Positions 6,321 through 64,000 of a stretch of 64,000 nt of DNA are shown piece by piece. How positions within the stretch are numbered: the first letter of the stretch is position 1; each line of letters starts with the position of its first letter. The position numbers and the translations under genes were made by a program. The stretch comes from the human T2T-CHM13v2.0 reference genome, Homo sapiens, in NCBI RefSeq assembly GCF_009914755.1, contig NC_060941.1; one strand, written 5' to 3'. Under the pieces are notes generated by a model. That model was not told the origin of the DNA, made no database searches, and saw only the letters and a list, made by a program, of their open reading frames with translations.

Positions 6321-7368
<1,048 letters not shown>

Positions 7369-42922: not shown

Positions 42923-44476
42923 TCAAAAACCTACAAAAGATACACAAAAAATAAAAAGTATACTACCAGAGAAAATCACCTTCACAAAAAGGAAGACAAG
43001 AAGAAAGGAAGAGAAGACCACCAAACCATAAAATAAATAATAAAATGGCAGGACTGAGTCCTAACTTATCAATAATAACATCGAATGTAAATGAACTAAA
43101 AACTCTCTAGTCAAAAGACATAGAGTGGCTCAATGGATAAAAAACAAAACCCAATGATCTGTTGCCTACAAGATGCACACTTCACCTACAAAGACACACA
43201 TAGACTGAAAATAAAGAGATGGAAAAAGATATTGCATGCAAATTGAAACCAAAAGTGATCAGGAGTAGTTTATACTTAGATAAAATAGATTTCAAGACCA
43301 AAACTGTAAAAAGAGACAAGGTCATTGTATAACGATAAAGGGGGTCAGTTCAGCAAGAGAATATCACATTTATAAATATATATGTACCCAACACTGGAGA
43401 ACCCAGATATATAAAGCAGATGTTATTAGAACTAAAGAGAGAAATATATTTCAATACAATAATAGCTAGAGATTTCAACATCCCACTTGCAACACTGGAC
43501 AGATCATCCAGACAGAAGGTCAACATAGAAACATTGGACTTAATCTGCCCTAGAGACTAAATAGACCTAATAGATATTTACAAAAGATTTCATTCAGCTG
43601 CTGCAGAATACACATTCTTCTCCTCAACATATGGATCATTCTCAAGGACAGACCATATTTGAGTCACAAAACAAGTCTTAAAAAATTCAGAAAAAATTGA
43701 AATCCTATCAGGTATTTTCTCTGACCACAGTGAAATAAAACTGGAAATCAATAACAAGAGGAATTTTGGAAACTATACAAACACATGGAAATTAATATGC
43801 TCCTGAATGACCAGTGGGTCAATGAAGAAATTAAGGAAATTTTTAAAATTTCTTGAAACAAATGATAATGGAAACAACATATCAAAACGTATGTCATACA
43901 ATGAAAGCAGTACTAAGAGAGTTTATAGGAATAAACACCTACGTCAAAAAGTGGAAAAACATCTAATAAATAACCTAATGATGCATCTTAAAGAACTAGA
44001 AAAGCAAGAGAAAACCAAACCCAAAATTAGTAGTCTGTGTCCTGTGAGGCCAGCCAGAAACATAGAAAAGCAAGAGCAAACCAAACCCAAAATTAGTAGA
44101 AGAAAAGAAAGAATAAAGGTCAGAGCAGAAATAAGTTAAATGGAAACAGACCAAAAAAATACAAAAGATCAATGAAATGAAAAGTTGTTTTTTTGAAAAA
44201 ATAAACAAAATAGACAAAGCTTTAGCCAGATGAAGGAAAAAAAGAGAAAAGATCCAGATAAAATCAGAAGTGAAAAAGGAGACATAACTAATACCAAGAA
44301 ATGCAAAGGATTGTTAAACGTTACTATGAGCAACTGTATACCAATAAATTGGAAAACCTAGAACTGGATAAATTCCTAGACACATACAACCTACCAAAAT
44401 GCAACCATGAACAAATCTGAAACCTGAACAGACTAATAACAAATAATGAGATTGAAGCTGTAATAATAAGTCTCCT

Positions 44477-44511: not shown

Positions 44512-47500
44512 ATCATAAGTCTCCTAGCAAGCAAAAGCCCAGGACCCAATGACTTCACTGCTTAATTTTACTAAACACTTAAAGAACCAATACCAGTCCT
44601 ATTAAATCTGTTCAAAAAAATAAAGGAGGGAGGAATATTTCCAAACTCATTCTATAATGAGGCCAGTATTATCTTGATACCAAAACCAAAGACACATCAA
44701 AAAAAAGAAAACTACAGACCAGTATCCCTGATAAACATTGATACAAAAATTCTCAACAAAAATACTAGCATACCAAATTTATCATGACCAAGTGGGATTT
44801 ATCTCTGGGATATAAGGATGGTTCATCATATGCAAACCAATCAGTATGATACATCATATCAAGAGAATTAAGGACAAAAACCATATGATTTCAATTGATG
44901 CTGAAAAGCATTTGATGAAATTCAACATCCCTTCATGATTAAAAAAAAAAACTCAAAAAAACTGGGTATAGGAGGAACATTAACACAATAAAAGCCTTAT
45001 ACAACAGACCCACAGCTAGTATCATACCAAACGGGAGAATTGGAAGCCTTCCCTCTAAGATCTAGAACAGGACAAGGATACCCACTTTCACCACTGTTAT
45101 TCAAAATAGTACTGGAAGTCCTAGCTAGAGCAGACAAGAGAAAGAAAGTGCATCCAGATTGAAAAGGAAATCAAATTATCCTTGTTCGCAGGTGATATCA
45201 TCTTTTTTGTTTGTTTGTTTTGTTTTTGGAGATGGAGTCTCGCTCTGTTGCCCAGGCTGGAGGGTTCAGGGACTTCTCTGCCTCATCCTCCCAAGTAGCT
45301 GGGATTACACTGCACTGCCTGCACTACAAAGCCTGGCTAATTTTTGTATTTTTTTTAGTAGAAACAAGGTTTCACCATGTTGGCCAGGCTAGTCTTGAAC
45401 TCCTGACTTCAAATGATCTGTTCACCTCGGCCTCCCAAAATGCTGGGATTACAGGCGTGAGTCACTGTGCCCCGCTGGTGATATCTTTTTTTTTTTTTTT
45501 AAGAGAGAGGGTCTCGCTGTGTCATCCAGACTGGAGTGCAATGGTGCATTCACAGCTTACTGCAGCCTTGACCTCTTGAGCTCAAGCAGTCCTCCCACCT
45601 CAGCCTCTCAAGTAGTTAGGACTACAGGCATGCACCACCATACCTGGTTACTTTTTTATTTTAGTAGAGATGTACCACCATTCCTGGCTAACTTAAAAAT
45701 CTTTTTGGAGAGATAGGGTCTCACTGTGTTGCCCAGGCTGGTCTCAAACTCCTGGCCTCAAGCAGTCCTCCTGCCTCAGCCTCCCAAAATGCTGGGATTA
45801 CAGTTGTGAGCCACCATGTCTGGCCCAGATGATAGGATCTTATATTTGGAAAAACCTAAAGACCCCCACCAAACAACTATTTGAACTGATAAATCCAACA
45901 AATCAACATACAAAAATCAGTAGCATTTCTGTATGCCAACAGCAAACAATCTGAAAAATCAAGAGAGTATTCCCATTTACAATAGCTACAAGTAAAATAC
46001 TTAGGAATAAACTTAATCAAAGAAATGAAAGATGGCCAGGCACGCTGGCTTATGCCTGTAATCCTAGCACTTTGGGAGTCCAAGGTGAGTGGGTCTCTTG
46101 AGACCAGGAGTTCAAGACCAGCCTGGGCAACATGGCGAAACCCTGTCTCCACAAAAAATACAAAAATTATCTGGGTGTGGTGACATGCACCCATGGTCCC
46201 AGCTACTCAGGAGGCTGAAGTGAGAGGATCACCTGAGCTCAGGAGGTCAAGGCTGCAGTAAGCCATGATCATGCCACTGCACTCCAGCCTAAGTGACAGA
46301 GTGAGACCTTGTCTCAAAAAAAAAAAAAAAGAAAAAGAAATGAATGATCCCTACAATGAAAACTATAAAACATTGATGCAACAAATTGAAGAGGACACAC
46401 AAAAAATGGATATTCTATGTTCATGGATTGGAAGAATTAATATTGTTAAAACGTTCATACTACCCAAAGCATTCTACAGATTCAATGTAATCCCTATTAA
46501 GATACCAATGATGTTCCTCACAGAAATAGAAAAAATAATACTGAAATTTATATGGAACCACAAAAGACTCAGAATAGCTAAAGCCATCCTGAGCAAAAAG
46601 AACAAAACTGGAGGAATGACATTACCTAACTTCAAATTATACTACAGAGCTGTAGTAACCAAAACAGCATAGTACTGGCATAAAAATAGACACACAGACT
46701 AATGGAACGGAATAGAGAACCCAGAAGTAAATCCATGCATCTACAGTGAACTCATTTTTGACAAAGGTGCCAAGAACATACATGGGGGAAAGGACAGTCT
46801 CTTCAATAAATAATGCCAGGAAAACTGGATATTCATACGTAGAAGAATGAAGCTAGACCCCTATCTCTCACCGTATACAAAAATCAATTCAAAATGGACT
46901 AAAGACTTGAACTGAAGACCTCAAACCATGAAACTACTAGAAGAAGAACTTTGGGAAAACTCTCCAGGAAATTGATCTGGGCAAAGATTTCTTGAATAAT
47001 ACCCCCAAAGCACAAGCAGCCAAGGCAAAAATGGATAAATGAGATCACATCAAGTTAAAAAGCTTCTGTACAGCAAAGGAAACAATCAACAAAGTGAAGA
47101 AACCACCCACAGAATGGGAGAAGATATTTGCAAACTATCAATCTGATGAGAGATTAATAACCAGAATATATAAGGAGCTCAAACAACTCTATAGAAAAAA
47201 ATCTAATCCGATTTAAAAATGGACAGAAATAGAAAAAATAATCCTAAAATGTATAAGATCTGAATAGGCATTTCTCAAAAGAAGACATACAAATGGCAAA
47301 CATATATGAAAAGATGCCCAACATCACTGATCGTTAGAGAAATGCACATCAAAACTACAATGAGATATCATCTCACCCCAGTTAAAATGGCTTCTATTCA
47401 AAAGGCAGGCACTAATGGATGCTAGGGAGGACATGAAGAAAAGGGAACCCCCCTTGGCCGGGCACGGTGGCTCACGGCCTGTAATCCCAGCACCTTGGGG

Positions 47501-52301: not shown

Positions 52302-54147
<1,846 letters not shown>

Positions 54148-57100
54148 TTAGCAAGCAAATACAACCAGCTACCAAATATTATATTTTCATATTTTTAAAA
54201 TTTGTTTTATTTATTTTGTAGATTGAGACAGGGCCTTGCTCTGTCACCCAGCCCAGAGTGCAGTGATGCAGTCATAGCTCACTGCAGCCTTGAACTTCTG
54301 GGCACAAGCTATCCTCCCACCTCAGCCTCCCTAGTAGCTGGGACTACAGATATGCACCACTATGCCCAGCTTTTTTTTTTTTTTTTAATGTTTTGTAGAG
54401 ATGGTATCTTGCCATGTCACCAAGGCTGGTCTTGACCTCCCGGGCTCAAGCCAACCTCTTTCTTTAGCCTCCCAAAGTGATGGTTTTATAGACTTGAGTC
54501 ATCACACCTAGCCTACTTAATTTTTAAAATGGGCAAAAGACTAAAATAGAAATTTCACTGAAGGCTACATATGAATGAATGATAAACACACAAAAAGGGG
54601 CTCGTCATTAGAGAAATGCACACTGAGACCACAGTGACATAGTAGCATATCCCCACTGGGATGGCTGCAACAAGAAAGGAAAAGCCATCCAGCAGCTTGT
54701 TTTGTAGATATTGACAAACTGATTCTAAAGCTTATGTAGAAAGGGAAAAGACTCAAAACGCAACATTTACAAAGAAAAGCGATGTTGGAGGAGTGATACT
54801 ACCCAATTTCGAGAATTACTATAAAGCTGCAGTGATCAAGACAGCATGGTAAAGTTGTCCACAAGGTCTTGTCTGTTGCATTATAGTCAACCCTAATGTC
54901 TATTAAATGGCTACTGTGTTTCAGACACTTTCATACATGTTAGCTCAGTTACTTCTCGTATCAGTACTTTTTTTATTATTTATTTTTTTGAGACAGAGTC
55001 TTGCTCTGTCATCCAAGCTGGAGTACAGTGGCGCAATATTGGCTTACTGCAACCTCCACCTCCCGGCTTCAAGCAATTCTCATGCTCAGCCACTGGAGTA
55101 CCTGGGATTACAGACATGTGCCACCATGCTTGGCTAATTTTTGTATTTTTTGTAGAGACAGGTTTCGCCATGTTGGCCAGGCTGGTCTTGAACTCCTGAC
55201 CTCAAGTGAGGACCTCCTTTGCCTCAGCCTCCCAAAGTCCAGGGATTACAAGCATGAGCCACTGCACCCAGCCTTGTATCAATACTTTATGTCAGGGTTG
55301 ATTAAAAAAAATTCTTTTAATTTTGATAAAATACACATAAAATGTGCTGTCTTAAATGTTTTTAAGTGTACAGGTCAGCAGTGTTAAGTATATAGCCAGC
55401 CCTCCATACCCACAGCTTCTGCATCCGTGGATGCAACCAGCCATGGATCAAAAATATTTGAAAAACAATAATACAACAATAAAAAAATAAACAGCATAGC
55501 AACTGTTACATAGCTTTTACATTGTACTAGGAATTATAAGTAATCTAGAGATGATTTAAACTCATAGGAGGATGGGCATAGGTTATAGGCAAATTCTCTG
55601 CCGTTTTATATCAGGAACTTGAGCATCTGTGGATTTTGGTACCTTGCGGGGTCCTGGAACCAATTGCCCAAGGATACCTAGGAATGATTCTATTGGTGAA
55701 AGAATAGACAAAAAAGATCACTGGAATGGAAGAGAGAGCCCAGAAATAGACCCATACAAATACAGTCAACTGATTTTGACAAAGGAGCAAAGGCAACTGG
55801 AGAAAGCCTAGTTTTTTTTTTCCAAGAAATGGTACTGGAACAACTGGACATCCACATACAAAATAATGAATTTAGATATCCTGTTTTACAAAAGTTAAAA
55901 CCACAGACATAAAAGCAACATGCAAAAGTATAAAACTCCTACAAAATAATAGAAAATTTAGGTGAATTTGGGTTACACCGTGACTTTTTAAAATTTTTTA
56001 TTTTACTTTATTTTTAGAGATGGGGGTCTCACTCTGTTGCCCAGGCTGGAGTGCAGTGGTATAATCATAGCTGACTATAGCCTTGGACTGTTGGGCTCAA
56101 GCAATCCTCCTGCCTCAGCCTCCCAAGTAGCGAAGACTATAGGTGTGTGCCAACCCCGCCTCCCCGCCGACCCCCTCCCCCAGCTAATTTTTAAAAACTT
56201 TTGTAGAGATAGGGTCTCCCTATGTTGCCCAGGCTGGTCTCAAACTCCTTGGTTGAAATGATCCTCCCACCTCAGCCTCCCAAAGTGCTGGGATTACCAG
56301 CACTGGTATGCTGGCATGAGCTCTACTGCACCTGGCTGGCAGTTTCTTAAAAAGCTAAAAATAAAGTTATCATTTGACTTAACAGTTCAACTCCCAGAAC
56401 TCTACTAAAAGAAATGAAAACAAATCCACACAAAGACTTCCACGTGAACATTCTAAACAGCATTATTGATGATAGCAAAAACTAGAAACAACCCAAATGT
56501 CCATCCACTGATGAATGGATAAACAAAGGCAGTATTTCCATACAATGGAACTACTCGGTAATAAAAGGAATGAAGCAGTGACGCATGCTGCAGCATTGAT
56601 GAACCTCAAAAACAGTATGCTAAGGAGAAGCAGCCAGACACAGGACTGCATATCATAAGACCCTACTTATATGAAATTGTTCATACAGACAGAAAGCAAT
56701 GCAGTGGATTGCCCAGGGCAGGAGATGGGAGCAGGGATTAACTACAAAACAGTCTCCAGGAAATTCTGCGGGGTGATGGAAAACTAGATGGTGGTGATGG
56801 TTACATAACTCCAAATTCATTTAAAATCACTGAGTTGTATACTTATATATGAATTTTATCATATGTAAATTATAACTCACTAAAAGTTTACAAAATATAA
56901 AAATAAGGCTCATGGAAAATGTAAATTAAGAAAAAACCGACTAGCCAGGAGGAAAAATGATGGGCTGCACATACACAAGCCCTCAGGCCCTGGTAACTGT
57001 TCTCTGTAAACCTGACTCGGAGTTTCTTGGTAGCCAAGTGACTAGAGAACTACTGCCCCCTGGAAGGGGAGGCATACTTAATTTCTTAAGAAATGCTGGG

Positions 57101-57851: not shown

Positions 57852-58317
57852 TCATTTAATGTTCCTTGATAAAGGCCACAAATATGATGCCAGAACACAG
57901 CCCAGAGAGGGAATTTCTGCTGAGGCTAAGAACATGTGGCCCGAGCTTGTCGCTTTCTGAATGCCCGGCTATATTCAAAAATAAATCCTAGAATAGTTAG
58001 CGAACTGGATGGAGTACACAGAGGCCTTTGGAAATATCCTCCATAAATATGATTTCTTTCAGTAGATTTGTAATGAGTTGGTAATTATTATGCAAGTGTT
58101 TTTTCCCCAGGTAGGGAAAGGGCTGGAATGCGCCAGTATTGCTAAGTAAGGGCATATCCTTCTGCAGAGCTATGGGAATGTATGCAAGGGGTGTGTTCCT
58201 GAAGAATTCACGTAACTCCAGATGCAAAGTAGGAGAGCTATGAGTTCAAATTCTGCTTATTAAGCAAGAGTTTAGTGTTTTGGGTTTTGTTGTTTTCTTG
58301 TGTTTTTAAAAAATCAT

Positions 58318-58742
58318 AGCTGGGCACAGTAGTTCATGCCTATTGTCCCAGCACTTTGGGAGGCTGATATGGGAGGATCACTTGAGCCCAGGAGTTCAAG
58401 GCCAGCCAGGGCTTGGAAGATAAACCTGGCAGCTCCCGAGGCCAGCCATGCCTCCACCATGCCAGCCTTCCTCTGGCCCAGGCTAGTGACTCAGGCCAAC
58501 GTTGGAAGGCCCACCAGGAGAGGATTCCACCTATCATAGTGTGACCCTGTCTCTACAAAAAATACGAAAATTTAAAAATTAGCTGGATGTGGTGGCATGC
58601 ACCTGTAGTCCCAGCTACTCAGGAGGCTGAGGTGAGAGGATCACTTGAGCTCAGGAGGTTGAGGCTGCAGTGAGCCATGATCGCACTGCTGCACTCCAGC
58701 CTGGGTGACAAAGCGAGACCCTGTCTCAAAAAAAAAAAAAAA
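58318..58742 (+). repeat. AluJ-like element carrying a 125-bp non-Alu insert (58410-58534)
   Basis: Alu left arm interrupted between ...CCAGGGC and CATAGTG...; the insert is about 94% identical to 60564-60688. Confidence 0.92.
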
Positions 58743-59223
58743 TTACATAATTCAAATCTGTGTTAAATGACACCTGTCCTTTAGTGATCAAAGGAGCAGA
58801 AAGTCCAGTTCCTTCTGTGTTCTGGGTGGGCTCGTTCCCTTGTAGAAATGTCCCTCTGTGCTGGCAACAGGATATGGTTGCCATTCAGCTCCTGGCCAGC
58901 CTGGGGCACAGGTCAATGTCATGGTCCCAGCTCATGAGGAATCCGGAAGAAAAAGATTTGTGGCTTTACACTGCTGCAATTTTTCAGTTCTTTGCTAATC
59001 TGCATTCACTTTTGAGCTCGTGTAAATTGCAGAAGAAGAGGGAAGTCACTGTTTGAAATAAGAATGGAACTATTATCAGCAAATACTTTGGGCACTTACT
59101 ATACAGTTAGCCCTTCATGTGTATTAACAAGTTCATCCTCACAGCCCTGCGAGGTCCTGGGGAGGGCACAAGTACATAAATCATGTCCCAGGGAGTCAGG
59201 CTTTGGATCAAAGTGGTACTTAC

Positions 59224-59786: not shown

Positions 59787-60688
59787 CTGGAAGAGACAAA
59801 AGGTGCAGCAATGACAGACCCCAAGCCAGGAAGCACCCTTGCTCAGATCAGCAAAGGGCTGGCCCCTATGTCAGTGCAAGTCAGCCCAGCCCTCTGCAAC
59901 CAGGTGCCTTTTGTCACAGGCCTTCATGTCCCCCGCATCTGAGGCGTTCATTTGGGCTAGACAGTCTTGTAGGAAGGGCAGTGTGGAAAATGCTTCCACT
60001 CCAGTGGTTCTCAGAGTGGGCGGCACGCTGGCGCAGCAGCATTAGCATCACGTGGGAACTTGTTAGAAACAGATTCTCAGACCCTGCCTCCGACCTGCTG
60101 AACCAAAGCCTGCTGGTGAGGCCCAGCAATCTGTGACCAGCCCTCCAAGGGGATTCCAGCGCAGGCTACAGCCTAAGAACCACTGCTTTCTACAGGGAAG
60201 CCGGTCTGAGCCTTCCAGTCTCAGAAAGCACAGCCATGATGTCAGAGGACATGAGTGGCTCCTTCTCCAGAGTGGGTTGGCAGCTGCCAAGCTCATGGGG
60301 GTGCTGGGAGGGCCAGGCCTGCAGAAGGACTCTGGACAGCTGGAAGGAGAGTGCTGGGCAGGAAGGGCCGTCAAAGAGTCAGGGTTTGCTCTAAGGTAAG
60401 TGGTAGAAGCCAGCTGTCTCCAGAAGAGTCCCAGAATCACAGCAGCAGGGAAGGAGTGAGTGGGGATGGGGAGAAAGTGGTGGGAGGGACGCCTGCTGCT
60501 CAGGGAGGGGCAGCTGTCAGCTTATCAGCAGAGGCTGACCTGGGTCAGATGGCAGGTCCAGCAGGCTTGGAAGATAAACCTGGCAGCTCCCGAGGCCAGC
60601 CCTGCCTCCAGCATGCCAGCCTTCCTGTGGCCCAGGCTGGTGACTCAGGCCAACGTTTGAAGGCCCACCAGGAGAGGACTCCACCTAC

Positions 60689-60797
60689 CTATGCTGAGCA
60701 CGCCCGAGACGGCCGAGCGCTTGGCCTGCACAGTATCCGCAGCCCCCAGAGCCATCCCCACTCGGACACAGACCCCGATGCTGAGCCCCAAGGGAAT
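60689..60797 (-). CDS. SLC47A2: SLC47A2 exon 11 (IPLGLSIGVCVRVGMALGA...SGVLSI)
   Basis: CCCAG acceptor, TAG|GTAGGT donor, 109 nt; VRVGxxLGA MATE motif. Confidence 0.96.
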
Positions 60798-62506: not shown

Positions 62507-63145
62507 TGAGCCCGGCTGATTTTGAAGGGCAGATTGGTAACAATGACAACAAAAAGACATTCCTGCCTGGCCTTCAGCCTGTTAGGAAAATTCTGCCCAG
62601 TGCCCCGGAGGCCCCTGCAGGCTTCCCTGTGTGGTCTGTCTTTCCAGATGAACTCAGGGTGGCAGTGTGAGGGAGGGGACAGAGAACAGGACCAGGGTCC
62701 GGCAACTCGAGTTCGGTTCTTGGCCCTCCCACTGATTTTCTATTTGTGGAGTTCCTGTGTTCTTGGGGCCCCGTTTTCTCATCTGCAAATGCGGGGCAGG
62801 GCAGGGGTTCTCACATTCAGGCTGCCTGGAGTCCTCACTTCACCGAGTGCTCTAATGAGCACACACAAGGCAGCAGGTGGGAGCCTCACACTGGCAAGCC
62901 TGGACCTCTGCTCACACCCGCAAACCAACTGAATCTCTCACTCCTCCGTGCCTCAGCCACCTCCCACGGGCACCTGCTCTGCCTGGCCCATGCTGGGATT
63001 CAGGCACAAAAGGCCCAAGTCTGCCTCCTGGATGCTCACAGCCTACTGGGGAGGCAGACCAGCAACAGACGGATCAGCCCCGCTGGGCAGTGGTGTTCTC
63101 TGGGTCCAAGCCTGAGGGCCTGGCCAGTGAAGCTGGAAGGGGGCT

Positions 63146-63230
63146 GGTGAGCTGCCATCCTGGGGAGGGGGCTTCTGGGATGGGTGAGCCGCCATCCTGG
63201 GGAGGGGGCTTCTGGGCTGGGTGAGCCGCC
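63146..63230. repeat. 37-bp G-rich tandem repeat (about 2.3 copies) in SLC47A2 intron 9
   Basis: GGTGAGCYGCCATCCTGGGGAGGGGGCTTCTGGGMTG units start at 63146, 63183 and 63220. Confidence 0.9.
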
Positions 63231-63266
63231 CACACGCCATTGCGCCCCCCATCCTCTTCCACGTAC

Positions 63267-63380
63267 CCATGAGGAAGCTCCCGATCTCATAGGCCCACCA
63301 CTCAACACAGATCATGAGCATGCTGGGGACAGCCAGGGAGAAGAAGGGGCCCCAGTCCTGCAGGCACTGGCTGGACCAAC
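63267..63380 (-). CDS. SLC47A2: SLC47A2 exon 9 (GWSSQCLQDW...MLMICVEWWAYEIGSFLMG)
   Basis: TTTCCAG acceptor, G|GTACGT donor, 114 nt; EWWxxE MATE motif. Earlier exons lie beyond the window. Confidence 0.96.
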
Positions 63381-64000
63381 CTGGAAACAGAGGCCCCATG
63401 AGCTGACAGCCTGCCCTGCTTGCCCACCTCATTCCTGCTCCCCACTGCCAGGAGGCCCCTAAACCCCTTTGGCTCTTCCTGCTCTGGGGCTTAGCAGGCT
63501 CAGGCACTGGGCATTTTGCAGAGGGAATGCAGCTGGTCTAGAGCTGGTGTTGGGGCCTACGGAGGAGGAGGATGCAGGAACAGGGCACCAGGCTCACCTG
63601 GCCAGTCCACGGTGTGGCCCCAGGGCTCAGGGCATGGGTGTTGGTCCCCACTCCACCACCCACCACTCTGCAGGCTCCATTTCCATCTGAAAACCCCAGG
63701 CCTTATAGCTGCCCTGCCTCCCTGGGGAGTTTTCAGAGGCGGCATGAGATCAAGGATGCTGAAGGGAAACACACCACAGGTGCACTGGGCAAGCTTGGAA
63801 GGGGCTCAGCCAGGGCCCTGCCCCACATGAGGCCCCAGGGGCCTGCAGAGCTGTTCCTGAAATGCCTGGCAGGAGAAGGTCCTTGTATGGGATTGGCTCT
63901 CAAGAGGCAGAAAAGGACAGGCAGGCCCCTACACGCCTGCTGTTTCAGCAAATTACTTAACCTCCGTCTGTCATAATCTCCTCTTTGTAAAATGGGGCTA

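What the first reader, a model, noticed from the sequence alone, without database searches (positions are those of the whole stretch)
58410..58534. 125-bp copy of the 5' end of SLC47A2 intron 11 pasted into an Alu, ending at the splice donor: possible repair templated by an excised intron RNA
Seen: 58410-58534 aligns without gaps to 60564-60688 in the same orientation (7 differences in 125 nt), about 2.15 kb away. It sits inside an Alu left arm and replaces about 2 nt of ...GGGC(AA)CATAG. There is no TSD and no polyA. The left junction shares GGC, extending imperfectly to CCAGC-AGGC. The right end stops within 1 nt of the exon 11/intron 11 boundary (60688|60689) and includes no exon sequence. 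Inference: a broken + strand 3' end annealed by microhomology to the - strand intron RNA and was reverse-transcribed (L1 ORF2p or Pol theta) until it ran off the intron's 5' end. Both the polarity and the stopping point fit this, whereas DNA template switching has no reason to stop at a 5' splice site. The copied donor now reads ATAGGT instead of GTAGGT. An intact donor behind an antisense Alu could have created a cryptic Alu exon.
Basis: partly seen in the sequence, partly recalled or inferred. Interest (0 to 1): 0.85.

Follow-up and report, generated by a model that had tools for sequence, protein, structure and literature searches.

The report
Break-repair patch copied from nearby intron
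An old DNA break inside an Alu repeat in the SLC47A2 gene was patched with a 125-base copy of sequence lying 2 kb away, a known kind of repair scar whose end happens to fall at a splice site.

Summary
Window 58410-58534 is a gapless copy (118 of 125 identical) of 60564-60688, the first 125 nt of SLC47A2 intron 11. It lies inside an Alu. About 2 nt of Alu are lost, and there is no target-site duplication and no poly(A). The left junction has 3 nt of microhomology and the right junction 0-1 nt. Source and copy are the only two matches in the T2T genome. The copy ends within 1 nt of the exon 11/intron 11 boundary.

Every feature tested fits a described class, the proximal "repair-mediated duplications" of Pace et al. 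2009. These are 824 human inserts of at least 50 bp inside transposable elements, with the donor under 5 kb away, median length 147 bp, and junctions showing microhomology, deletion and filler.

The polarity does fit. But a chance endpoint within 1 nt of a 5' splice site costs about 0.08-0.14% per genic donor. That predicts roughly 0.2-1 such case per genome from DNA-templated events alone. No RNA-specific mark is present, and I found no evidence of germline expression.

Verdict: a new member of a known kind. The template was DNA with probability about 0.65 and intron RNA about 0.3. Primate orthologues and a genome-wide endpoint test would decide.

The parts
58410..58534 (.). Inserted patch (acceptor copy): 125 nt copied from the 5' end of SLC47A2 intron 11. 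On the gene (minus) strand it begins ATAGGT at 58534.
   Evidence: 118 of 125 identical, no gaps; only two copies in the genome; exactly the unmasked gap between two masked Alu pieces.
60564..60688 (-). Donor: the first 125 nt of intron 11 (intron 59787-60688 on the minus strand), non-repeat sequence continuous with exon 11.
   Evidence: annotation; unmasked; no other part of intron 11 or exon 11 is copied anywhere at high identity.
58319..58412 (+). Host Alu, the part of the left arm before the break. Its last 3 bases (GGC, 58410-58412) are shared with the donor (60564-60566).
   Evidence: alignment with other window Alus; Rfam 7SL-type match 58319-58435.
58535..58742 (+). Host Alu, the rest of the left arm, the right arm and the A tail (58728-58742). 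About 2 nt of Alu are absent between the two parts.
   Evidence: Rfam 7SL-type match 58582-58729, E 2.6e-13; masked 58535-58755.
58410..58412 (.). Left junction: 3-nt microhomology GGC, with an imperfect extension (9 of 11 aligned, 2-nt gap) between the Alu end and the donor flank 60555-60566. This is the likely priming or annealing junction.
   Evidence: alignment; anchored score 6; 249 of 19126 positions within 5 kb, both strands, score as high, other Alus included.
58534..58535 (.). Right junction. 58534 (T) mismatches donor 60688 (C). It is either a later substitution or a 1-nt filler. 58535 (C) is ambiguous between the Alu and the last exon base. Homology here is 0-1 nt.
60689..60797 (-). 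SLC47A2 exon 11 (NM_001099646.3). Its 3' end at 60689 abuts the donor, and the 5' splice site reads ...ATAG|GTAGGT on the gene strand.
   Evidence: annotation; sequence.

Best explanation
This is a scar of double-strand break repair, a proximal 'repair-mediated duplication'. A break occurred in the left arm of an Alu lying in intron 13 of SLC47A2, some tens of millions of years ago.

The plus-strand 3' end on the left side (ending ...CCAGCCAGGGC) paired by microhomology with complementary sequence 2.15 kb away on the same chromosome, or on the sister chromatid. It was extended for about 122-125 nt and then came off the template. It was joined to the other broken end with little or no homology, and about 2 nt of Alu were lost.

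The template was most likely the minus DNA strand of intron 11, in the manner of synthesis-dependent strand annealing or polymerase-theta-type end joining. The stop at the exon 11/intron 11 boundary is then a coincidence.

Shown: the copy, its uniqueness, the junction anatomy, and the asymmetry of homology. Inferred: the break, the direction of synthesis, and the nature of the template.
For: Anatomy: searches show a gapless 125-nt copy, about 2 nt of Alu lost, no target-site duplication or poly(A), GGC microhomology on the left and 0-1 nt on the right.

Uniqueness: searches found 2 matches in the genome, source and copy. Masking: one search shows the insert is exactly the unmasked gap in the Alu.

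Match to the published class: Pace et al. 2009 (PMC2671141; Results parts 1-2 and section 14 read). They report 824 human inserts of at least 50 bp inside TEs with a single donor under 5 kb away. Of the 1,136 duplicons in their full set, 753 were under 3 kb apart. The proximal inserts had mean length 162 bp, median 147 bp, maximum 619 bp. None of the 39 inspected proximal cases had a poly(A/T) tail. Junction types MH+Del (9 of 39) and MH+Del+Filler (10 of 39) were the commonest. Microhomology ranged 2-9 nt, deletions 1-15 nt and filler 1-68 nt. Every value here falls within those ranges.

Donors in that set are mostly outside genes: 522 of 824 are not in the genic rows of Table 2 (my subtraction). 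So RNA from an intron is not needed for the class.

Chance of the endpoint: one search gives 0.0008-0.0014 per genic donor, hence 0.24-0.42 expected among about 302 genic donors.

Age: 5.8% corrected divergence gives about 26 My (95% range 10-57), using the 2.2e-9 per year pairwise rate that Pace et al. apply. This falls in the period when they find most such events.
Against: A DNA template gives no reason for synthesis to stop within 1 nt of a 5' splice site. For this one event the coincidence has a probability near 0.1-0.2% (5-7 annotated donors within 5 kb).

The polarity inferred from the junction homologies is exactly the one that an RNA run-off needs.

4 of the 7 differences are transversions. 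This could hint at error-prone copying, but it is not significant (binomial P = 0.17).

I could not see Table S1 of Pace et al. because supplements are closed. So I cannot say whether this locus is in their list, or whether other listed donors end at splice sites.
Confidence: 0.65

Rival explanations
1. One reading: the template was SLC47A2 intron 11 RNA, as an excised and debranched intron, a lariat, or a 5'-cleaved splicing intermediate. The broken plus-strand 3' end annealed to the RNA 125 nt from its 5' end. A reverse-transcribing polymerase (L1 ORF2p or polymerase theta) extended it until it ran off at the intron's first nucleotide. The blunt product was then joined to the other end.
For: The endpoint is at 60687-60689, against the intron's first base 60688. 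The homology-rich junction is on the side where priming must occur, and the homology-poor junction is at the run-off side.

The break site lies in the same transcription unit, 2.15 kb downstream in the direction of transcription. Intron 11 RNA would be made and released close by; this is inference.

RNA-derived patches at breaks without target-site duplication or poly(A) are described as class 2 templated sequence insertions. There, reverse-transcriptase inhibitors lowered their frequency more than three-fold, and intronic sequences are among the templates (PMC5110952, parts 1-2 read).

A 2026 screen lists the lariat debranching enzyme DBR1 as an unexpected modulator of theta-mediated end joining outcomes (PMC13269935, passages). 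That is a lead only.
Against: This is a single coincidence, with an expected chance count of about 0.2-1 per genome.

No RNA-only signature is present. There is no exon-exon joint, no branch read-through, and the terminal base does not even match.

The 125-nt RNA has no unusual fold (z = +0.71) and matches no Rfam family, so there is no sign of a stable small RNA.

The papers I opened describe expression in kidney, brain ciliated cells and seminal vesicle, with none showing germ-cell expression (passages only, no expression atlas consulted).

The class as a whole has mostly non-genic donors. Some donors in it cross exon/intron borders (4 partial exon/intron and 2 intron/exon/intron), which excised introns cannot template.
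Confidence: 0.3
2. An L1-endonuclease-driven, target-primed retro-insertion of a piece of SLC47A2 pre-mRNA (class 1 templated insertion, or a retrocopy fragment).
For: The insert is transcribed sequence from a gene. L1 ORF2p can act on other RNAs, as stated in PMC5110952.
Against: There is no target-site duplication; about 2 nt are lost instead. There is no poly(A) or poly(T) at either end. The target is not of the TTTT/A type. None of the 39 inspected proximal events in Pace et al. had such tails.
Confidence: 0.02
3. This is not an insertion event at all. It could be chance similarity, a low-copy dispersed repeat present at both places, or the intron segment being the copy and the Alu-embedded segment the original.
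For: Nothing positive. I considered it because intron 11 does hold an old dispersed repeat elsewhere, at about 59986-60189.
Against: The match has E 1.9e-48 and the genome holds 2 matches. The source stretch is unmasked and joins a coding exon at a working splice site. The other copy splits an Alu whose two parts are otherwise contiguous.
Confidence: 0.01

Closest known systems
Proximal repair-mediated duplications (RDs) of Pace, Sen, Batzer and Feschotte 2009 (PMC2671141). Related to them are the short local 'doublets' of Thomas et al. 2004, as cited there.
   Same: An insert of at least 50 bp splits a transposable element. There is a single donor on the same chromosome under 5 kb away (here 2,154 nt). 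The length of 125 nt is close to their median of 147. There is no poly(A). Microhomology of 3 nt, a small deletion of about 2 nt and a possible 1-nt filler are present. The donor is intronic, as are 278 of their 824. The age falls in the catarrhine range, where they find most events.
   Different: Nothing in the anatomy differs. The one peculiarity is that the donor's end coincides with a 5' splice site. I could not check whether this locus is already in their Table S1, because supplements are closed.
Class 2 templated sequence insertions and polymorphisms (Onozawa and Aplan; review PMC5110952)
   Same: A patch at a break, with no target-site duplication, no poly(A), and with micro-deletion and microhomology. 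Intronic sequences are among the templates, and an RNA origin is argued for the class.
   Different: Those inserts are defined as coming from distant regions, often other chromosomes. This one comes from 2 kb away in cis. RNA origin is not shown here.
Endonuclease-independent L1 insertion at breaks (Morrish et al. 2002, as summarised in PMC5110952)
   Same: Reverse transcription primed from a broken DNA end, lacking target-site duplication and poly(A). It is the mechanism that the RNA reading borrows.
   Different: There the template is L1 RNA. Here it would be a spliceosomal intron fragment, and no L1 sequence is involved.
Polymerase-theta templated insertions (TINS) in theta-mediated end joining (PMC13269935, passages)
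   Same: Microhomology-primed copying followed by rejoining.
   Different: In the passage I saw, the TINS templates lie within the flanks of the break itself. That they are usually far shorter than this insert is my recollection and comes from no call. This insert is 125 nt, copied from 2.15 kb away.
Retrohoming of linear group II intron RNA, completed by end joining (PMC3280974; search listing and start of abstract only)
   Same: It concerns linear intron RNAs and ligase 4-dependent and -independent joining (title and start of abstract). My recollection, from no call here, is that the cDNA reaches the 5' end of the intron RNA and is then attached to DNA by end joining. That would make it the nearest known analogue of the proposed run-off step.
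   Different: It involves a mobile ribozyme intron with its own reverse transcriptase, inserted by reverse splicing. It is not a spliceosomal intron used as a passive patch.

Membership tests
Proximal repair-mediated duplication (Pace et al. 2009) | An insert of at least 50 bp interrupts one transposable element, whose two fragments are contiguous in the element (within 30 positions) | tested here: met
   The masked pieces 58273-58410 and 58535-58755 flank a 124-125-nt unmasked gap. Against 7 of 7 other window Alus, the two parts are contiguous apart from about 2 nt.
Proximal repair-mediated duplication (Pace et al. 2009) | The inserted sequence is found at exactly one other place in the genome | tested here: met
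   One search found 2 matches at E<=10, the source and the copy. One search agrees. Closed regions are not shown.
Proximal repair-mediated duplication (Pace et al. 2009) | The donor is on the same chromosome, more than 50 bp and less than 5 kb from the acceptor | tested here: met
   The offset is 2,154 nt, in the same orientation.
Proximal repair-mediated duplication (Pace et al. 2009) | No poly(A/T) tract of 5 nt or more at an insert end. The junctions show microhomology (2-9 nt), deletion (1-15 nt) and/or filler (1-68 nt) | tested here: met
   GGC microhomology, about 2 nt deleted, a possible 1-nt filler (58534), and no A or T run at either junction.
Proximal repair-mediated duplication (Pace et al. 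2009) | An empty, uninterrupted site in an outgroup species | not testable with these tools
Class 2 templated sequence insertion (Onozawa and Aplan) | No target-site duplication, no poly(A), no cryptic poly(A) signal; end-joining marks at the junctions | tested here: met
Class 2 templated sequence insertion (Onozawa and Aplan) | [quoted passage not shown] | tested here: not met
   The donor is 2.15 kb away in cis.
L1 target-primed retro-insertion (class 1 insertion or retrocopy) | A target-site duplication of at least 5 bp, a poly(A) tail, and a TTTT/A-type target | tested here: not met
   There is a loss of about 2 nt instead of a duplication, no tail, and the target lies in a G+C-rich Alu stretch.
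   The endpoint is 60687-60689 against the intron start 60688. The left junction is in the top 1.3% for homology, and the right has 0-1 nt. A DNA template can also produce this by chance.
   No spliced joint or read-through is present in the insert. The enrichment could not be tested: one search showed that a chr17 survey is out of reach within the 2-Mb fetch limit.
   The papers found name kidney, brain ciliated cells and seminal vesicle. No expression atlas is available here. An hESC enhancer mark lies at 62981-64256.

The most novel reading that the evidence does not exclude
The patch was reverse-transcribed from intron 11 RNA that had just been released by splicing, or cleaved at its 5' splice site, at the site of transcription. 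Synthesis ran off at the intron's first nucleotide. This locus would then be a fixed germline fossil showing that spliceosomal intron RNA can template the repair of a chromosome break in cis. Part of the 'proximal duplication' class in genes would then be RNA-templated.
Probability: 0.3. Interest if true: 0.75.

Novelty: new member of a known kind. Interest (0 to 1): 0.35.

Why it matters
As it stands, this is one more example of a known repair scar in a non-coding part of a drug-transporter gene, and it has no visible consequence. The copied splice donor is inactive (ATAGGT).

Its value is as a pointer. If endpoints of such local duplications pile up at 5' splice sites in the polarity seen here, that would be natural, germline evidence that excised or nascent intron RNA templates break repair in primates. 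So far this has been argued mainly from reporter systems and from distant insertions.

The test is purely computational and can be done on existing primate assemblies. A working copy of a real splice donor placed behind an antisense Alu could also have created a new exon, which shows how such patches can seed exonisation.

Tried and rejected
Dispersed repeat or chance match: rejected. The genome holds 2 matches, and the pair is the only strong non-repeat self-match in the window.

A stable small RNA as the source (miRNA, snoRNA or similar): rejected. No Rfam family matches the donor at E<=1. The 125-nt RNA folds no better than shuffles (z = +0.71; 148 of 200 shuffles fold at least as well).

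A larger event involving more of intron 11 or exon 11: not found. With 59787-60797 as query, the only other high-identity match is the known copy. 40 of 427 first-look candidates were scored. The rest of the listed matches fall in query positions 200-403 at 72-83% identity and belong to an old dispersed repeat.

Error-prone copying read from the substitution pattern: 3 transitions and 4 transversions, not significant (P = 0.17).

Mini-survey of chr17 for similar split-Alu inserts, to test for endpoint enrichment: abandoned. There are 29,174 gaps of 50-650 nt between listed repeats. Of these, 1,532 have flanking pieces summing to Alu length, and 702 of those lie in genes. The filter does not even catch the present case. 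Only about 2 Mb can be fetched, in which under one true event is expected from the published density.

Germline expression: the searches gave only kidney, brain ciliated-cell and seminal vesicle statements (passages), which settles nothing.

Literature on inserts ending at spliceosomal 5' splice sites: searches returned no paper describing this. That covers only the held open-access library and those terms.

Primate orthologues: no tool here holds them.

Full report
**1. The observation**

Reading the two stretches and aligning them confirms the finding. Window 58410-58534 matches 60564-60688 without gaps at a constant offset of 2,154 nt, in the same orientation. A script lists 7 mismatches in 125, at 58448, 58457, 58473, 58485, 58504, 58525 and 58534. 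Three are transitions and four are transversions, and none lies at a CpG.

A search of the whole T2T genome with the 125-mer at E<=10 gives 2 matches: the source (100%) and the copy (95%, E 1.9e-48) (matches in closed regions are not shown). After masking the annotated repeats, this pair is by far the strongest self-similarity in the 64-kb window (E 4e-50; the next is 6e-10). The match is real and is not a dispersed repeat.

**2. The setting**

The reference's repeat masking covers 58273-58410 and 58535-58755 and leaves exactly the insert unmasked. The donor stretch is unmasked. Rfam's SRP/7SL model, which picks up Alu arms, matches 58319-58435 and 58582-58729. BLAST of 58300-58760 against the window finds dozens of Alu copies. 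Their matches stop at 58410-58412 and resume at 58535-58536, with only 2-4 nt between the two pieces in the other copies.

A direct alignment with seven other Alu copies of the window, taken as they stand, shows that 7 of 7 carry two more bases (AA) between the GG[GCT]C and the CATAG-like stretch. So about 2 nt of Alu are absent at the junction. There is no target-site duplication, and neither end of the insert carries an A or T run.

In RefSeq, exon 11 of NM_001099646.3 is 60689-60797 on the minus strand and intron 11 is 59787-60688, 902 nt. The donor is thus the first 125 nt of intron 11. The copy lies in intron 13, about 690 nt past exon 13, within the long terminal exon of one predicted transcript (XM_054315168.1, 56438-59048).

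**3. The junctions**

On the left, the Alu end and the donor flank share GGC, with an imperfect extension: CCAGCCAGGGC against CCAGC--AGGC. I scored the broken Alu end against every position within 5 kb on both strands, anchored at the 3' end. The real donor position scores 6, and 249 of 19,126 positions (1.3%) score as high, with other Alu copies heading the list.

On the right there is next to no homology. The last base of the insert (58534, T) does not match the donor (60688, C). The next base (58535, C) equals both the last exon base (60689) and the base the Alu would have there. Beyond it the sequences are unrelated.

Firm homology ends at 60687. 'No exon sequence' means 0 or 1 exon base.

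The asymmetry, with homology on the left and almost none on the right, suggests that the left plus-strand 3' end primed the synthesis, which ran rightwards. This is inference.

**4. What it is**

Every tested feature fits a described class. Pace, Sen, Batzer and Feschotte (2009, PMC2671141; I read Results parts 1-2, section 14 and term passages) searched the human genome for transposable elements split by inserts of at least 50 bp that occur at only one other place.

- Of 1,136 such cases, 824 had the donor within 5 kb and 753 within 3 kb.
- The proximal inserts had a mean of 162 bp, a median of 147 bp and a maximum of 619 bp.
- None of the 39 inspected proximal cases had a poly(A/T) tail.
- Their junctions showed microhomology (2-9 nt), deletions (1-15 nt) and filler (1-68 nt). 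MH+Del (9 of 39) and MH+Del+Filler (10 of 39) were the commonest types.
- The authors attribute them to synthesis-dependent strand annealing at breaks. They link them to the short local 'doublets' of Thomas et al. 2004 (as cited in their section 14).

The present case has a 125-nt insert, a donor 2,154 nt away, 3 nt of microhomology, about 2 nt deleted, possibly 1 nt of filler, and an intronic donor (278 of their 824 are intronic). It is an ordinary member by every criterion I could test. The empty site in an outgroup could not be tested. Whether the locus is in their Table S1 I could not see, because supplements are closed.

**5. Age**

The corrected divergence is 5.8% (7 of 125), or 5.0% if the terminal base is set aside (6 of 124). 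With the pairwise rate of 2.2e-9 per year that Pace et al. apply, this gives about 26 My or 23 My. Poisson 95% ranges are 10-57 and 8-52 My. That places the event around the catarrhine stem, the period in which those authors count the most events. Without primate sequences this remains an estimate.

**6. DNA or RNA template**

The minus DNA strand and the intron RNA have the same sequence, so the product cannot tell them apart. Only the endpoint speaks for RNA. I estimated how much chance can supply.

- On chr17 the select transcripts give 10,849 distinct 5' splice sites in 40.56 Mb of genic DNA. The chance that a given end of a genic donor falls in a 3-nt window at a 5' splice site is therefore 0.0008.
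- For SLC47A2 the figure is 0.00125-0.0014. There are 5 (select) to 7 (all transcripts) annotated donors within 5 kb of the break.
- Table 2 of Pace et al. lists about 302 donors in genic categories (278 intron, 11 + 5 UTR, 4 partial exon/intron, 2 exon, 2 intron/exon/intron).
- The expected number of chance hits of this exact geometry is thus 0.24-0.42 among TE-embedded events. It is roughly twice that for the whole genome, if TEs make up the 40-45% the authors state.
- From general knowledge, chr17 is gene-dense, so these figures are probably on the high side.

One such case somewhere in the genome is therefore affordable under DNA templating alone. For this single event, however, the coincidence is a 0.1-0.2% matter.

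*Against RNA.* 522 of 824 donors in the published class lie outside the genic rows (my subtraction), so the class does not need transcripts. Some donors cross exon/intron borders. There is no spliced joint or branch read-through here. The terminal base mismatches. The RNA has no special fold (z = +0.71) and matches no Rfam family. The papers I opened name kidney, brain ciliated cells and seminal vesicle for SLC47A2, not germ cells (passages).

*For RNA.* The polarity fits. The break lies 2.15 kb downstream in the same transcription unit, where intron 11 RNA would be released (inference). There is published evidence that break patches without target-site duplication or poly(A) can derive from RNA, with intronic templates among them (Onozawa and Aplan 2016, PMC5110952, parts 1-2 read). 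Transcript RNA can also guide end joining in human cells (Jeon et al. 2024, PMC11390984, abstract only). A 2026 genome-wide screen lists the lariat debranching enzyme DBR1 as an unexpected modulator of theta-mediated end joining outcomes (PMC13269935, passages). That is a lead, not evidence.

Weighing these, I put DNA templating at about 0.65, intron-RNA templating at about 0.3, and everything else at about 0.05. The split depends mostly on an unknown: what share of genic proximal duplications is RNA-templated.

**7. Other readings**

An L1-endonuclease retro-insertion is contradicted by the junctions: there is no duplication, no tail and no T-rich target. Chance similarity, or a reversed direction of copying, is contradicted by the uniqueness of the pair, by the donor's continuity with a coding exon at a working splice site, and by the split Alu.

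**8. Consequence**

On the gene strand the copy begins ATAGGT where the donor has GTAGGT. It lies downstream of the antisense right arm of the Alu. The idea that an intact copied donor could have made an Alu exon is reasonable from general knowledge of Alu exonisation, but I did not test it. The chance that one of 7 substitutions hits the GT pair is about 11% by my own arithmetic, so nothing points to selection. 58534 may also never have been a copy of the G at all.

**9. Novelty and literature**

The kind is known. This instance I could not find named in print. Searches of the held library returned no paper that describes break-repair inserts ending at spliceosomal 5' splice sites. That covers only open-access papers and those terms.

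The nearest analogue of the proposed run-off step may be the retrohoming of linear group II intron RNA completed by end joining (PMC3280974). I saw only its search listing and the start of its abstract; the run-off detail is my recollection.

**10. Verdict**

The finding is a new member of a known kind, with modest interest. Its main worth is the clean genome-wide test it suggests.

Noticed in passing
window 59986-60189 (inside SLC47A2 intron 11): This stretch matches 38 listed loci on many chromosomes at 72-83% identity (40 of 427 candidates scored). It is therefore an old interspersed repeat, yet it is not in the list of masked repeats of 100 bases or more. The same stretch gives a weak Rfam mir-544 match (60042-60120, E 0.28) and an inverted self-match to 6375-6443.
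   Followed up: partly
window 43997-44033 and 44063-44099: A 37-nt direct duplicate at 97% identity, with copies 66 nt apart. It is a small local duplication of unknown origin.
   Followed up: no
window 45206-45262, 53041-53097, 55994-56057: Three short stretches that are 82-87% alike, in mixed orientation. They are probably fragments of an unmasked short repeat.
   Followed up: no
window 58400-58407, 58440-58447 and 60594-60601: The 8-mer ggccagcc just left of the break in the Alu recurs exactly 30 nt inside the donor and its copy. The donor is rich in CCAGC-type motifs that resemble the broken end, which may have helped the choice of donor.
   Followed up: no
window 58580-58631 and 58648-58707: There are sub-threshold Rfam matches to mir-1268 and mir-3135 in the right arm of the host Alu (bits 42.7 and 37.7, against gathering scores of 83 and 80). 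From general knowledge, I take these families to be Alu-derived and do not read the matches as miRNA genes.
   Followed up: no
window 62981-64000: RefSeq lists H3K27ac-H3K4me1 hESC enhancer features at 62981-63618 and from 63619 onwards. This hints that the locus is open in pluripotent cells, which bears weakly on whether SLC47A2 RNA could exist in early embryos.
   Followed up: no
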